A stretch of DNA of 64,000 nucleotides from Eledone cirrhosa. Its lineage: Eukaryota. Positions 12,957 through 39,451 of the stretch are shown here, piece by piece (position 1 is the stretch's first letter; each line of letters starts with the position of its first letter). The position numbers and the translations under genes are program-made. The stretch spans positions 434,001 through 498,000 of the forward strand of contig OZ024760.1 in NCBI GenBank assembly GCA_964016885.1, in the 5' to 3' direction. The notes below the pieces were generated by a model. That model was given only the letters and a program-made list of their open reading frames with translations. It was not told where the DNA came from and searched no databases.

Positions 12957-15056
12957 ACTGGTAGTGCATCACTGTAGTGCATCACTGTAGTGCATAACTG
13001 TAGTGCATCACTGTAGTGCCTCACTGTAGTGCATCACTGCAGTGCATAACTGTAGTGCATAACTGTAGTGCATCACTGTAGTGCCTCACTGTAGTGCATC
13101 ACTGTAGTGCATCACTGTAGTGCATCACTATAGTGCATCACTGTAGTGCCGCACTGTAGTGCATCACTGTAGTGCCTCACTGTAGTGCATCACTATAGTG
13201 CATCACTGTAGTGCATCACTGTAGTGCATCACTGTAGTGCATAACTGTAGTGCATCACTGTAGTGCCTCACTGTAGTGCATCACTGTAGTGCATAACTGT
13301 AGTGCATAACTGTAGTGCATCACTGTAGTGCCTCACTGTAGTGCATCACTGTAGTGCATCACTGTAGTGCATCACTATAGTGCATCACTGTAGTGCCGCA
13401 CTGTAGTGCATCACTGTAGTGCCTCACTGTAGTGCATCACTATAGTGCATCACTGTAGTGCATCACTGTAGTGCATCACTGTAGTGCCTCACTGTAGTGC
13501 ATCACTGTAGTGCATCACTGTAGTGCATCACTATAGTGCATCACTGTAGTGCCGCACTGTAGTGCATCACTGTAGTGCCTCACTGTAGTGCATCACTGTA
13601 GTGCCTCACTGTAGTGCATCACTGTAGTGCATAACTGTAGTGCATCACTGTACTGCCTCACTGTAGTGCATCACTGTAGTGCATCACTGTAGTGCATCAC
13701 TATAGTGCATCACTGTAGTGCCGCACTGTAGTGCATCACTGTAGTGCCTCACTGTAGTGCATCACTATAGTGCATCACTGTAGTGCATCACTGTAGTGCC
13801 TCACTGTAGTGCATCACTATAGTGCATCACTGTAGTGCCTCACTGTAGTGCATCACTGTAGTGCATAACTGTAGTGCATCACTGTACTGCCTCACTGTAG
13901 TGCATCACTGTAGTGCATCACTGTAGTGCATCACTATAGTGCATCACTGTAGTGCCTCACTGTAGTGCCTCACTGTAGTGCATCACTGTAGTGCATCACT
14001 GTAGTGCATCACTGTAGTGCATCACTGTAGTGCCTCACTGTAGTGCCTCACTGTAGTGCATCACTGTAGTGCCACACTGTAGTGTCTCACTGTAGTGTCT
14101 CACTGTAGTGCATCACTGTAGTGCATCACTGTAGTGCCTCAATGTAGTTCATCACTGTAGTGCATCACTGTAGTGCATCACTATAGTGCATCACTGTAGT
14201 GCATCACTGTAGTGCATCACTGTAGTGCCTCACTGTAGTGCATCACTGTAGTGCCTCACTGTAGTGCATCACTGTAGTGCCTCACTGTAGTGCATCACTG
14301 TAGTGCATCACTGTAGTGCCTCACTGTAGTGCCTCACTGTAGTGCATCACTGTAGTGCATCACTGTAGTGCATCACTGTAGTGCCACGCTGTAGTGCATC
14401 ACTGTAGTGCATCACTGTAGTGCCACACTGTAGTGCCTCAATGTAGTTCATCACTGTAGTGCATCACTGTAGTGCATCACTGTAGTGCATCACTGTAGTG
14501 CATCACTGTAGTGCATCACTGTAGTGCATCAATGTAGTGCATCACTGTAGTGCATCACTGTAGTGTCTCACTGTAGTGTCTCACTGTAGTGCATCACTAT
14601 AGTGCATCACTGTAGTGCATCAATGTAGTGCATCACTGTAGTGCATCACTGTAGTGTCTCACTGTAGTGCATCACTATAGTGCATCACTGTAGTGCATCA
14701 CTGTAGTGCATCACTGTAGTGCATCAATGTAGTGCATCACTGTAGTGCCTCACTGTAGTGCATCACTATAGTGCATCACTGTAGTGCATCACTGTAGTGC
14801 ATCACTATAGTGCATCACTGTAGTGCATCACTGTAGTGCATCACTGTAGTGCATCACTGTAGTACATCACTGTAGTGCCTCACTGTAGTGCATCACTGTA
14901 GTGTCTCACTGTAGTGCATCACTGTAGTGCATCACTGTAGTGCATCAATGTAGTGCATCACTATAGTGCATCACTGTAGTGCATCACTGTAGTGTCTCAC
15001 TGTAGTGCATCACTGTAGTGCATCAATGTAGTGCCTCACTATAGTGCATCACTGTA
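12957..15056. repeat. 13-bp minisatellite (ACTGTAGTGCATC)n, ~160 copies
   Basis: Uninterrupted 13-bp period over 2.1 kb with recurring variant units. Confidence 0.98.
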
Positions 15057-33609: not shown

Positions 33610-33767
<158 letters not shown>

Positions 33768-33848
33768 GGTAAATAGAAATAACAACACAATCGGTACAGT
33801 ATATGGCAGGAATATATTAGGTTAACGCTTGAAATAGCAGGAAGAGGG

Positions 33849-33884
33849 TCTTAACGTTTCGGACGCTAGTTTTTCATCAGAAGA
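33849..33884 (-). ncRNA. Minimal hammerhead, family D (stem II decayed)
   Basis: Reverse complement TCTT-CTGATGA-AAAAC-TAGC-GTCC-GAAAC-GTT^AAGA. Confidence 0.65.
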
Positions 33885-34191
33885 AAAAATGAGAAATTAG
33901 AGAGATGGAAGGGACGGGCGGAGTGGAATTGGAAAAAAATGCCTTTAGATAAAAATGACATGTCCATTCATGTCGCCATCTCTTGGAAAGCTATATATAA
34001 ATATAGGAGGGGGGCGCTGAAAAGTTGTTGGCTTTAAGGGCATCACGAAAGGGTAGAGCTGTTACCTTTAAGGACCGCTGCAATAAGTACGTGAATGTAT
34101 GTATGTAAAAGGTAAACAGAAATAACAACACAATCGGTACAGTATATGGAAAGGATATATTAGGTTAACGCTTGATATAGCAGGAAGAGGG

Positions 34192-34227
34192 TCTTAACGT
34201 TTCGGACGCTAGTCCTTCATCAGAAGA
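34192..34227 (-). ncRNA. Minimal Penelope-type hammerhead, family D (intact)
   Basis: Reverse complement TCTT-CTGATGA-A-GGAC-TAGC-GTCC-GAA-ACGT-T^AAGA; palindromic ACGU stem III; 343 nt from the previous copy. Confidence 0.85.
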
Positions 34228-34509
34228 AAAAATGAGGAATAAGATAGATTGAGGGGTCGGGCGGGTTGGAATTGGAAAAAAAATGTCTTCAGATAAAAAT
34301 AACAGGTCCCTTCATGTTGACATATATATATTTAGGTATATTTAAAATTTCATGCACGACCTTAGGTTTCGGGATCCAGTTATGGCCACCAATATAGAGT
34401 GGAGGAGCCGTTTTAAAACTGTGAGTGAGCTATATCTAAAAATATAAACGCACACAACTCACACATCTCTCCCTCCCTCTCTCTCTTTCTACCTCTGTCT
34501 CTCTCTTTC

Positions 34510-35291: not shown

Positions 35292-35615
35292 ATATATATT
35301 CTATTCTATTCTATCTTCTATCTTATTATATTCTATCTTATTATATTATATTATATATATATATATATATATAACAATATATTTAGAAACACACAGATAC
35401 ATGCGGACACACACATATATACATGAATGCATCCGCACCCAACTGTGAGTTAAGGGTGCCAACTTCACCGATGTTGCTCAATGAATGACTGGGACAGACC
35501 AATTCAGTTGAACTAGACTGAACCAGTATCAGAGTTAAAAATACATTATGAAGAGAGAAGAAACATTTAGATATAATTAGTAATAAAATGTATCATACCT
35601 AAACTGCTCCTAAAT

Positions 35616-35705
35616 TCCTCGACTACGTAGTTTCGTGGCATAAACAAAAACAATATATCATAAAGATATAGAGTCCTTGCGAGGTCTGCCGACTTATCAA
35701 GAGGA
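35616..35705 (-). ncRNA. Hammerhead with U3-A8 variant core, family H
   Basis: Reverse complement of 36663-36752. Confidence 0.75.
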
Positions 35706-36662
35706 TACCTCATTTTACTAGTCTCAAGAACGCGTCTACACGACGTGAGAAAGAATCCCAAAAGGCGGAGGGGGAGATAGTCACGCGATATAACGGTCGA
35801 GAAACAGAGCTAAGCCTCTTATAACCCCGAAGAAAATACCACGGAGGCGGAGGGGGTATTTATATCGAGGCCGTAGAAGAGGTGGTGAAGAAGGCGAGAA
35901 GTATGAGTAATGGAAGCCTTCCAGCTGTCCCCACACTTCAAAGATTGCTCGACCAGAGGGAGTTATTAACAATATAATTAGAAACACACAGATACATGCG
36001 GACACACACATATATACATGAATGCATCCGCACCCAACTGTGAGTTAAGGGTGCCAACTTCACCGATGTTGCTCAATGAATGACTGGGACAGACCAATTC
36101 AGTTGAACTAGACTGAACCAGTATCAGAGTTAAAAATACATTATGAAGAGAGAAGAAACATTTAGATATAATTAGTAATAAAATGTATCATACCTAAACT
36201 GCTCCTAAATTCCTTCTCTCTTCATAATGTATTTTTAACTCTGATACTGGTTCAGTCTAGTTCAACTGAATTGGTCTGTCCCAGTCATTCATTGAGCAAC
36301 ATCGGTGAAGTTGGCACCCTTAACTCACAGTTGGGTGCGGATGCATTCATGTATATATGTGTGTGTCCGCATGTATCTGTGTGTTTCTAATTATATTGTT
36401 AATAACTCCCTCTGGTCGAGCAATCTTTGAAGTGCGGGGACAGCTGGAAGGCTTCCATTACTCATACTTCTCGCCTTCTTCACCACCTCTTCTACGGCCT
36501 CGATATAAATACCTCCTCCGCCTCCGTGGTATTTTCTTCGGGGTTATAGGAGGCTTAGCTCTGTTTCTCGACCGTTATATCGCGTGACTATCTCCCCCTC
36601 CGCCTTTTGGGATTCTTTCTCACGTCGTGTAGACGCGTTCTTGAGACTAGTAAAATGAGGTA

Positions 36663-36752
36663 TCCTCTTGATAAGTCGGCAGACCTCGCAAGGACTCTAT
36701 ATCTTTATGATATATTGTTTTTGTTTATGCCACGAAACTACGTAGTCGAGGA
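36663..36752 (+). ncRNA. Hammerhead with U3-A8 variant core, family H
   Basis: TCCTC-TTGATAA-GTcGGCA..TGCCAC-GAA-ACTACGTAGT-C^GAGGA: stem I UCCUC/GAGGA, 10-nt palindromic stem III, GUC triplet. Confidence 0.78.
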
Positions 36753-36821
36753 ATTTAGGAGCAGTTTAGGTATGATACATTTTATTACTAATTATATCTA
36801 AATGTTTCTTCTCTCTTCATA

Positions 36822-36859
<38 letters not shown>

Positions 36860-36892
36860 AAGAAATTAAAAGATGGTTAAAAAAGTTCCATA

Positions 36893-36962
36893 TATTTTAT
36901 TATGCGCATTTCGAAAACAACATCATCCTAGGACAAAAATTGTGTTCTCATCAGATAGAATA
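36893..36962 (-). ncRNA. Type I hammerhead motif, family F
   Basis: Reverse complement TATTCTAT-CTGATGA-GAACAC..GTTTTC-GAA-ATGCGCAT-A^ATAAAATA. Confidence 0.8.
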
Positions 36963-37090
36963 AGGTAACATGATATGAGGCCTAAAAACACTAGTGAACA
37001 AGAAAGTGTGCAGTCTACATATCATGTTACCTTATTTTATTGGACACTTTCTTGTTCACAAATGTTTTTATGCCTCCTATCATGTTACCT

Positions 37091-37160
37091 TATTTTATCT
37101 GATGAGAACACAATTTTTGTCCCAGGATGATGTTGTTTTCGAAATGCGCTTAGTAAAATA
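37091..37160 (+). ncRNA. Type I hammerhead motif, family F (inverted partner)
   Basis: TATTTTAT-CTGATGA-GAACAC..GTTTTC-GAA-ATGCGCTT-A^GTAAAATA. Confidence 0.72.
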
Positions 37161-37294
37161 TATGGAACTTTTTTAACCATCTTTTAATTTCTTCTTTATA
37201 TATACTCCAGTTCTACCTACCAACTGTTGACTGCTACTTATCTGATATATGCATATTTTTAATGTTCTACAATATTACTCACCTCCTACACACG

Positions 37295-37429
<135 letters not shown>

Positions 37430-37715
37430 GAGGTGAGTAATATTGTAGAACAATAAAACTATATATATATATATATATTTCGTTTCTGAATTTGTTTAGC
37501 AAGATTCTTTATCTGAAATCGTGTGTTGAAACCGATATTGTTATACTTTGGGAGGGTCATGTTGCCAATAAGAAACACACGCACCAGTGCGTGTGTTTCT
37601 TATTGGCAACATGACCCTCCCAAAGTATAACAATATATATATATATATATATATATATTTAATATAGATGAGATTCTACAGGACTAGAACTGTTTCATTC
37701 TTTAGAAATCATCAG

Positions 37716-37768
37716 GAGATTCCTGATGATTTCTAAAGAATGAAACAGTTCTAGTCCTGTAGAATCTC
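37716..37768 (+). ncRNA. Complete type I hammerhead, family C
   Basis: GAGATTC-CTGATGA-TTTC-TAAA-GAAT-GAA-ACAG-TTCTAGTC-CTGT-A^GAATCTC; 7-bp stem I. Inverted arm at 37670-37717 lacks most of the 5' stem I. Confidence 0.87.
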
Positions 37769-38312
37769 ATCTATATTAAAACTGTTATACTCTGCTATGT
37801 ATTGAGTACCTTACTTACTGTGGTTACCTCTGATTCAACCCGGAATAACTTACCTATATATATATATATATATATTGGTTTTAAATATATCTGGGACTAT
37901 ATTATCTAATATACTATTACAGTATTACATTTTTATAGATATTTGGGTGTTTAATATGAGGGTGGTGTGGCTATTGTTTCTAACAGGTCTACTAACCACT
38001 TCTATCAACATCATCATAACCCTGCTAGCACCACTAGCAATGATATTACCATTACAAAGGTTATTATCAACAACATCATCACAGCCATCACTATTTCTAT
38101 CACCATTATGAGGGTCGACCGAAAAATTCATAGGCTGACTAGGAAATAATGATGTTAGAGCTGTGAAATTTTCCATGCATTAGTTTAAACTCTTTTTATT
38201 AATAACTGCATCGTTTCTTTACGGGGACTATGTAGATAAATAAACCTCGTTTGGTCATTCCATGAGAGTATCTTGGTCAGTCAATGAACTTTTCATACGA
38301 TCCTCGTACATA

Positions 38313-38659: not shown

Positions 38660-38941
38660 CATATAACTATATATATATATAAACGGAAAAAATGAAACGA
38701 AATTTCAGTTCCCACTCTTAGTACGGCTGTTACTTAAATATAAGTATGTACACGTATATATATGTATACAGACGTACAGTAGTATGTATATATATATACA
38801 TACATGCACACATATATATATGTACGTATGGATTCACCGAACATTTATTATAATGCTCGGTGTGTTTGTAAACAAACATCCCGTATTAAGCCGTAGTGTC
38901 CAGCAACCATCGTCGCTCGTTTGTTCAACACTGACAAAGGA

Positions 38942-38984
38942 ACGCTGTACTAGTTTCAAGCTTATTAGCTATCGTCAGCAACGT
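38942..38984 (-). ncRNA. Type I hammerhead, family I
   Basis: Reverse complement ACGTTG-CTGACGA-T-AGCT-AATA-AGCT-T-GAA-ACTAGT-A^CAGCGT. Confidence 0.85.
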
Positions 38985-39046
38985 ATACCTTCCTGCCAGA
39001 TTGTTTAACGTATATACTTACCTTATGCATATTAACGGCTGAGCTA

Positions 39047-39093
<47 letters not shown>

Positions 39094-39300
39094 TATGTAC
39101 ACGCACATACATATATGTATACAGACGTACAGTAGTATGTATGTATATATATATATATACATACATGCACACATATATATGTACGTATGGATTCACCGAA
39201 CATTTATCATAATGCTCGGTGTGTTTGTAAACAAACATCCCGTATTAAGCCGTAGTGTCCAGCAACCATCGTTGCTCGTTTGTTCAACACTGACAAAGGA

Positions 39301-39343
39301 ACGCTGTACTAGTTTCAAGCTTATTAGCTATCGTCAGCAACGT
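39301..39343 (-). ncRNA. Type I hammerhead, family I (359 nt from the previous copy)
   Basis: Identical motif. Confidence 0.85.
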
Positions 39344-39403
39344 ATACCTTCCTGCCAGATTGTTGAACGTATATACTTACCTTATGCATATTAACGGCTG
39401 AGC

Positions 39404-39451
<48 letters not shown>

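What the first reader, a model, noticed from the sequence alone, without database searches (positions are those of the whole stretch)
35372..36827. 595-nt circularly permuted, retrozyme-like unit with one copy starting at the predicted ribozyme cut site
The minus arm is 1.42 units and the plus arm is one unit plus ~19 nt in a different permutation, both with period 595 and no real ORF. The 5' end of the minus arm (36214, AGGAATTTAGG) is 1 nt short of the predicted cleavage product (GUC^GAGGAAUUUAGG) and joins the inverted arm through a 2-nt microhomology. This is what reverse transcription of a self-cleaved multimeric or circular RNA to its 5' end would leave. A TATAAATA lies at 36504-36511, upstream of the ribozyme. 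Candidate non-autonomous ribozyme retroelement (retrozyme) mobilised by a Penelope-type RT.
Basis: partly seen in the sequence, partly recalled or inferred. Interest (0 to 1): 0.88.

Follow-up and report, generated by a model that had tools for sequence, protein, structure and literature searches.

The report
Circle-copied hammerhead retrozyme, Penelope-type insertions
This is one of thousands of copies of a protein-free jumping element with a predicted self-cutting RNA motif, a new family of a known kind (retrozyme), and its back-to-back insertions look as if a borrowed Penelope-type enzyme likely copied one small RNA circle round and round from two fixed start points.

Summary
The structure is real and is no assembly artefact: a 595-nt non-coding unit with a type I hammerhead motif (U3-A8 core), inserted head-to-head in (TA)n. 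The genome holds at least 2,587 such insertion ends and 7,679 ribozyme-core copies; subfamilies are 75-100% alike, and none examined is joined to an ORF. Arms end at two fixed sites 165 nt apart, each behind a predicted hairpin; 69 of 77 inverted insertions use one of each. This is the known Penelope 'tail', here four to five times longer. All units of one insertion, both arms included, share one haplotype (0.30% apart against 0.84% shuffled), and the cut site is read through cleanly (295 of 296). That fits double-primed rolling-circle reverse transcription of a monomer circle; uncut linear multimers are not excluded. No RNA, cleavage or partner enzyme is shown. The scan noted similar hammerhead families and the two-end rule elsewhere in this genome; this sequence had no earlier match. 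Verdict: new family of non-LTR retrozymes with an unusually informative insertion record.

The parts
35372..36214 (-). Minus arm, 843 nt, from u536 through one full unit to u188; ends at priming site B in (TA)n
36213..36827 (+). Plus arm, one unit plus 19 nt; ends at priming site A (u19) in (TA)n
36205..36214 (.). Head-to-head inversion junction: 2-nt exact overlap inside a looser 10-nt overlap between the two arm 5' ends
36663..36752 (+). Type I hammerhead motif (5-bp stem I, U3-A8 core, bulged stem II with long inserted hairpin, palindromic stem III); predicted cut between 36747 and 36748
   Evidence: descriptor match; pair counts; fold; cleavage not tested
35616..35705 (-). Second copy of the hammerhead motif, read through by the minus arm; predicted cut between 35621 and 35620
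36757..36809 (+). Predicted hairpin A, ending 12-19 nt before end site A; its extension is predicted to pair with the ribozyme's 3' strand in the circle
   Evidence: z -3.1; 94% of cells paired
36326..36381 (+). Predicted hairpin B (internal copy), which precedes end site B
   Evidence: z -5.7; inner helix 98% paired
35372..35540 (-). The 'tail', u20-u188: the stretch between end sites A and B, terminal on this arm only
36504..36511 (+). TATAAATA, candidate internal promoter element; kept in most older subfamilies, changed in the 591-nt subfamily; untested
35349..35373 (.). Left (TA)n target remnant; no target duplication can be read
36825..36856 (.). Right (TA)n target remnant

Best explanation
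This is one insertion of a high-copy, non-coding hammerhead-motif element (a non-LTR retrozyme family) that lands in (TA)n head-to-head with one arm ending at each of two fixed sites, and it is likely copied by a borrowed Penelope-type RT-endonuclease that likely primes from both nicked target strands and rolls round a single circular monomer RNA. Steps: (1) a tandem genomic copy is transcribed (inferred); (2) the hammerheads cut out a monomer of about 595 nt that is ligated to a circle (inferred from the family's described biology and from the haplotype pattern); (3) the enzyme nicks (TA)n on both strands and starts one cDNA at site A (u13-20) and the other at site B (u183-188), each just 3' of a predicted hairpin (end positions shown; enzyme inferred); (4) both cDNAs run through the ligated cut site for a roughly exponential distance, mean about 600 nt, up to at least 4.9 units (lengths shown); (5) the two cDNA ends join by 0-14 nt of microhomology, or one cDNA joins the TA flank to give a single arm (junctions shown). 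Confidence: about 0.9 that it is a real PLE-dependent non-autonomous element, about 0.6 that the main template is a circle.
For: Copy number and spread: 5,045 and 7,679 core matches, 2,587 site-A/TA junctions. Fixed 3' ends: 56 of 60 arms in 39 consecutive loci end at A (28) or B (28). Pairing: 69 A+B, 1 A+A, 0 B+B, 7 other among 77 inverted insertions in 141 loci; among 60 loci picked for an A end, 32 of 34 inverted ones have a B partner and none an A partner. The same two sites are used in subfamilies 75-84% alike. Two separate primings: in 22 of 66 two-arm loci neither arm lies within the other, so fold-back copying is impossible there, and the 44 compatible cases match chance, 41.7 +/- 3.6. 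One template haplotype: arms of one insertion differ by 0.30% against 0.84% for shuffled partners of the same subfamily (0 of 2,000 shuffles, 33 loci); the 595- and 591-nt subfamilies have overlapping ages yet never mix in 18 loci typed on both arms; 39 long loci show 31 distinct, internally uniform haplotypes; 42 rare variants are fixed in every unit of their insertion. Continuous template: 295 of 296 read-throughs keep exact spacing at the cut site. A single linear RNA carrying both arms without overlap would need at least 1,190 nt in 45 of 66 cases, while only 5 of 59 sampled loci have an arm that long. No element-linked ORF: long frames near the loci belong to separate TA-bounded elements. 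A young PLE family with 775-aa open RT+GIY-YIG frames (73 scored copies, 98-100% identical), a U3-A8 hammerhead, TA targets and its own A/B ends is present. Literature: a PLE protein nicks and extends both strands, starts at two internal sites and is a predicted dimer (PMC11167929); animal retrozymes form circles and PLEs are the proposed movers (PMC7229834).
Against: No cleavage or circle was observed. The ribozyme fold is weak: stem I is predicted only for the isolated motif (P 0.64-0.86) and is lost with 30 nt of upstream sequence in 5 of 6 monomers. Covariation over 24 sequences does not exceed shuffles (28 of 500 reach the score; one compensatory pair in stem I). In the Li preprint 8 of 9 tested retrozyme dimers did not cleave, and the anole PLE uses uncut RNA in vitro. 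Of 12 examined arms that stop at u535/536, 6 do so after one or more read-throughs, this copy included, which is what a linear multimer with a cut 5' end would leave. This window's own insertion is not perfectly uniform: 2 of its 4 internal differences match family polymorphisms. 5' ends are also about twice as dense at u281-350, near the TATA motif, which could mark a linear transcript start. The unit has no sequence similarity to any of 50 PLE loci examined, so the partner is unidentified.
Confidence: 0.6

Rival explanations
1. Same element and enzyme, but the template is an uncut or partly cut linear multimeric transcript from tandem genomic copies (one RNA, or two RNAs from one locus on a dimer); circles are rare or not used.
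For: Stops at the cut site after earlier read-throughs in 6 of 12 cases. Weak predicted ribozyme fold. Uncut RNA is the dominant PLE substrate in vitro. 27 of 59 loci carry two tandem ribozymes and could be sources. Excess 5' ends at u281-350. Naiad PLEs form tandems without canonical hammerheads.
Against: Linear copying alone cannot lengthen arrays or fix a new variant in every unit, yet 31 uniform haplotypes occur in 39 loci and 42 rare variants are fixed across units. Only 5 of 91 partial variants recur in a second locus. Required template lengths exceed most genomic arrays.
Confidence: 0.27
2. The units are ordinary pLTR or end fragments of an autonomous PLE whose ORF-bearing copies were not sampled.
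For: The insertion grammar is exactly that of PLEs: inverted 5'-truncated arm, one-sided tail, TA targets. Only about 200 of some thousands of loci were read.
Against: Arms run unit-into-unit for up to 4.9 units with no ORF and no recurring breakpoint. The same closed unit of about 590 nt persists in subfamilies down to 75% identity. No nucleotide, protein or covariance-model match to 50 PLE loci apart from one independent insertion of the element itself.
Confidence: 0.06
3. Monomers insert and are then amplified or homogenised locally at the DNA level (unequal crossover, gene conversion), as proposed for retrozyme arrays in the Li preprint.
For: Proposed in the preprint. It would give uniform arrays.
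Against: Uniformity extends across inverted arms (11 locus-private variants on both arms). Arrays are dispersed, end at fixed priming sites, and arm lengths fall off smoothly rather than in whole units.
Confidence: 0.06
4. Assembly artefact or chance repeat.
For: Inverted repeats inside microsatellites are hard to assemble.
Against: The same end rule holds in 69 other inverted insertions, and the arms here differ at 3 positions.
Confidence: 0.01

Closest known systems
Metazoan non-LTR retrozymes (Cervera and de la Pena 2020, PMC7229834; Li et al. 2026, bioRxiv 10.64898/2026.07.22.740005)
   Same: Non-coding tandem units, one type I hammerhead per unit, GC under 50%, no LTR, co-occurrence with PLEs; unit size within the 51-972 bp range of the preprint.
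   Different: Larger than the 150-450 bp given in the 2020 paper. Dispersed short arrays in inverted pairs with two fixed ends, which the parts read do not describe. A PLE-like hammerhead (5-bp stem I, U3-A8) with a 59-nt stem II region. In the predicted circle stem I is not formed, unlike most animal circles described. No pLTR relative found.
Endonuclease-positive Penelope-like element insertions (Arkhipova 2013 PMC3846280; Craig 2021 PMC8557442; Frangieh 2024 PMC11167929)
   Same: Head-to-head inverted 5'-truncated arm, tail on one end only, (TA)n targets, two internal start sites, first site about 80 nt after the ribozyme cut.
   Different: No ORF. The tail is about 165 nt instead of 30-40 bp. 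Arms are multimers of a closed unit.
Minimal PLE hammerheads (Cervera and de la Pena 2014, PMC4209133)
   Same: Short stem I, palindromic stem III suited to dimer folding, U3-A8 covariation, bulge in stem II.
   Different: Stem III has four potential pairs around a 2-nt loop, and stem II carries a long hairpin.
Non-autonomous Chlamys PLEs such as MRC1 (Craig 2021, passages)
   Same: Non-coding, head-to-tail multicopy PLE-type insertions.
   Different: Those resemble autonomous families at the 3' end and their clade lacks canonical hammerheads; no such resemblance was found here.

Membership tests
Non-LTR retrozyme | Tandem non-coding units, each with a type I hammerhead motif | tested here: met
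Non-LTR retrozyme | No LTR and no ORF of its own; high copy number | tested here: met
   PBS and PPT were not searched for
Non-LTR retrozyme | Self-cleavage of the RNA | not testable with these tools
   Indirect only: small excess of 5' ends at u535/536; weak predicted fold in context
Non-LTR retrozyme | Monomer-length circular RNA in vivo | not testable with these tools
   Only genomic inference
Non-LTR retrozyme | Relatedness to a PLE pLTR (Li 2026) | tested here: inconclusive
   No match in 50 PLE loci out of 10,596 GIY-YIG candidates
Type I hammerhead ribozyme | Conserved core with 3-8 pair, GAAA, NUH and three stems | tested here: met
   stems I, II, III paired in 93, 97, 99% of cells over 24 sequences; no Rfam hit
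Type I hammerhead ribozyme | Covariation beyond chance | tested here: inconclusive
   One compensatory pair in stem I; whole structure not above shuffles
EN+ PLE (autonomous) | RT plus GIY-YIG ORF between pLTRs | tested here: not met
EN+ PLE insertion product | Inverted 5'-truncated arm, one-sided tail, AT-rich target | tested here: met
   tail about 165 nt rather than 30-40 bp
EN+ PLE insertion product | Target site duplication | tested here: inconclusive
   Both flanks are (TA)n

The most novel reading that the evidence does not exclude
The family is a genomic record of double-primed rolling-circle retrotransposition: a dimeric Penelope enzyme starts two cDNAs at two hairpin-marked sites 165 nt apart on one ribozyme-made RNA circle, each cDNA laps the circle, and their ends are joined. 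This would explain both the PLE inverted-arm-plus-tail structure and how animal retrozyme circles integrate as tandems. Some templates may carry A-to-I edits that were copied into every lap.
Probability: 0.4. Interest if true: 0.75.

Novelty: new member of a known kind. Interest (0 to 1): 0.5.

Why it matters
Integration of animal retrozyme circles by a PLE enzyme is a hypothesis in the papers read, and the origin of PLE inverted arms and tails is called undefined there. This family offers thousands of very young insertions in which template haplotype, start sites and read-through can be scored, a defined RNA of about 595 nt, and a young intact PLE family in the same genome as a candidate enzyme. 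Circle versus linear template, and one versus two RNAs per insertion, become direct in-vitro tests. As an object it is another retrozyme family in a genome full of them.

Tried and rejected
Rfam at gathering threshold: no hit. Sequencing runs: no RNA holder listed. Contigs of four runs of unrecorded kind were laid; two hold the unit as one 620-621-nt contig at depth 8, which a circle or a collapsed high-copy repeat would both give, so nothing is concluded. Partner search by nucleotide BLAST, tblastn and a covariance model over 50 GIY-YIG loci: nothing beyond one independent insertion. The 2,600 extra matches to the ribozyme's 3' half turned out, in 20 of 20 loci read, to be older subfamilies or variants of the same element, not a partner. 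The hairpins before the candidate PLE's own ends do not fold better than shuffles (z -0.6 and +1.4), so a shared structure with that PLE is not shown. A co-transcriptional on/off switch: rejected as unshown, because stem I is predicted absent in the nascent RNA as well as in the circle, and the blocking pairing is strong in young (0.94-0.99) but mixed in older monomers (0.10-0.94). End-to-end template jumping with added bases: no scar in 295 of 296 junctions. Non-displacing twin priming on one linear RNA: B-arm 5' ends lie near site A in 1 of 28. Fold-back self-priming as the general source of the inverted arm: impossible in 22 of 66. A-to-I editing: kept only as a weak lead. The bacterial promoter scan is irrelevant to an animal. 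Rows dropped before counts: L002, L004, L008, L016 (overlapping fetches), the second copies in L039 and L258 (segmental duplicates), L047 (dropped by mistake as a duplicate; it is A+B), two tandem duplicates among the 38 places read, and indel-prone or end-proximal positions in the variant counts. Literature searches listed no paper on haplotype evidence for circle copying or on this family; subscription papers, bioRxiv supplements (family lists of the Li preprint) and the supplements of the other papers were not seen.

Full report
Observation. Coordinates in the unit are u1-u595 = window 36214-36808. The minus arm (35372-36214) is 843 nt with period 595, the plus arm (36214-36827) is 595+19 nt, and they meet head-to-head with a 2-nt exact overlap. 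Both outer ends run into (TA)n. No frame exceeds 87 aa. Rfam gives no hit, but a descriptor finds a type I hammerhead: 5-bp stem I, a U3-A8 core, a bulged stem II holding a long hairpin, a palindromic stem III and a GUC site, with the cut predicted between u534 and u535. The minus arm starts at u536.

The family. The host is an animal with a 3.0-Gb, microsatellite-rich genome; I did not determine the group. The 31-nt core spanning the cut occurs 5,045 times and its 5' 20-mer 7,679 times. The surplus is older subfamilies, 75-97% alike. There are 2,587 exact junctions of site A with TA repeats. About 200 loci were read. Long frames in their flanks belong to other, TA-bounded elements, and no arm continues into an ORF. 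Over 24 sequences the ribozyme stems and two flanking hairpins stay 88-99% paired, mostly through G-U-tolerant changes, with one U-A to U-G to C-G series in stem I. Covariation does not exceed shuffles.

3' ends. In 39 consecutive loci on C1, 56 of 60 arms end at u13-20 (site A, 28) or u183-188 (site B, 28). Across 141 loci, inverted insertions are A+B in 69 of 77, A+A in 1, B+B in 0, other in 7. Sixty of those loci were chosen for an A end; there 32 of 34 inverted ones have a B partner. Old subfamilies use the same sites. Each site follows a predicted hairpin (z -3.1 and -5.7). This is the PLE 'tail present at only one end' (Craig 2021 and Arkhipova 2013, passages), which Frangieh 2024 ties to two internal start sites of a protein that nicks and extends both strands (main text). 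Here the tail is about 165 nt rather than 30-40. Arkhipova's fold-back model cannot give 22 of 66 two-arm insertions, and containment of one arm in the other is at chance level, so two independent primings are inferred.

5' ends. They are scattered, with roughly twofold excesses at u106-140 and u281-350 and none significant at u526-560. The count just 3' of the cut is 5,208 against 5,045 across it. In the set unbiased for the cut, 2 of 118 arrivals stop at u535/536 (0.4 expected, P = 0.06). Among TA-joined ends on C1-C4, 10 of 36 in u521-540 lie at u535/536 (p = 0.002 against flat; positions read by eye from the first 100 of 219 rows). So a minor class of cut-site ends probably exists, which is weak indirect support for cleavage in vivo. 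Of 12 such arms examined, 6 stop there after earlier read-throughs. That fits a linear multimer with a cut 5' end, or a pause at a ligation scar or at the ribozyme's stems. This copy's end also coincides with complementarity between the two cDNA ends.

Template. Units within an arm differ by 0.31% and between arms by 0.28%, against 0.8-1.2% between insertions of one subfamily. Shuffling arm partners within subfamily gives 0.84% against 0.30% observed, 0 of 2,000. Two subfamilies of overlapping age never mix in 18 typed insertions, and 39 long loci carry 31 distinct uniform haplotypes. Forty-two rare variants are fixed in every unit of their insertion. Spacing across the cut site is intact in 295 of 296 read-throughs. 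A variant can reach every unit only through a one-unit bottleneck followed by re-multimerisation. A ligated monomer circle copied by a rolling RT does this, and it also lets two cDNAs overlap on one molecule. Linear multimers from tandem loci remain possible for part or all of the events.

A possible editing trace. Rare variants fixed in all units are A>G in 10 of 42, against 8 of 186 for variants in some units (p = 2e-4). But 4 of the 10 come from one locus, A>G versus T>C is not significant (p = 0.08), common polymorphisms show A>G 11 and G>A 10, and selection on RNA pairing also favours A>G. It is a lead only.

Enzyme. The genome has many PLE families (10,596 GIY-YIG candidates) with TA-abutting ends. 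One young family has RT and C-terminal GIY-YIG domains, 73 scored copies at 98-100% identity with mostly 775-aa open frames, a U3-A8 hammerhead, its first end site about 82 nt after the cut (79-80 here) and its own A/B pairing with a 62-nt tail. One locus, L042, joins a retrozyme arm to a short fold-back of that PLE's end with no TA run between; this could be co-mobilisation or two events at one site. No sequence or shared-hairpin link to this PLE was found, so it is a candidate only.

Ribozyme activity. Stem I is predicted for the isolated motif but not in its context or in the circle. That fits the weak, dimer- or protein-assisted PLE hammerheads (Cervera 2014, passages). It also means cleavage cannot be assumed; 8 of 9 Xenopus dimers did not cut in the Li preprint.

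Comparison. It works like a PLE insertion product and meets the sequence-level definition of a non-LTR retrozyme; the RNA-level features are untested. Papers seen: Li 2026 preprint, parts 1-3 of 5; Frangieh 2024, parts 1-2 of 4; Cervera 2020, parts 2 and 4 of 6 and passages; Cervera 2014, Craig 2021 and Arkhipova 2013, passages only. No supplements were read. ADAR preferences, L1 twin priming and RT stalling at ligation scars are recalled, not from a call. Earlier notes of this scan describe other hammerhead families in this genome, the two-end rule and twin hairpins; I had recorded the pairing rule before looking. A look-up by sequence found nothing, nor did two by words on circle or haplotype evidence.

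Verdict. Real; a new family of a known kind. The value lies in the insertion statistics, which favour double-primed rolling-circle copying at about 0.6. Interest 0.5.

Noticed in passing
L042:4800-4935 (G000:C1 near 23442100): A retrozyme arm is joined without a TA run to a short fold-back of the young PLE family's pLTR end, with mixed microhomology at the join; possible co-mobilisation, single case.
   Followed up: partly
L101:3279-9237 (G000:C1:145867500-145877400): Young PLE family with 987-nt pLTRs, a U3-A8 hammerhead, many 775-aa open RT+GIY-YIG frames, a 62-nt tail, and a 69-nt motif repeated about 186 nt apart at the ORF's 3' end.
   Followed up: partly
L058 (G000:C1:45635300-45644000): Four A>G changes, three within 16 nt in hairpin A, are present in both units of one insertion; looks like an edited template copied twice.
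   Followed up: partly
window 36849-37204: A 164-nt inverted pair right next to the insertion; the descriptor found a matching C3-G8 hammerhead family in other loci, so likely a fold-back end of another PLE family.
   Followed up: no
window 37448-37800: Further short fold-back pieces between TA runs whose ends match recurring TA-abutting end clusters seen in other loci.
   Followed up: no
window 38738-39450 and 33765-34282: Two-copy repeats of period 359 and 343 bounded by microsatellites; probably other PLE-type ends or retrozymes.
   Followed up: no
G000:C1:338974550-338982243: Several multi-unit arrays of this family lie close together on one strand; candidate long source locus.
   Followed up: no
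window 12961-15056: 161 copies of a 13-bp minisatellite.
   Followed up: no
runs X4 and X6: Runs labelled as two other organisms each hold the 591-nt subfamily unit as one contig at depth 8; trace DNA, a related species or a circle cannot be told apart.
   Followed up: no
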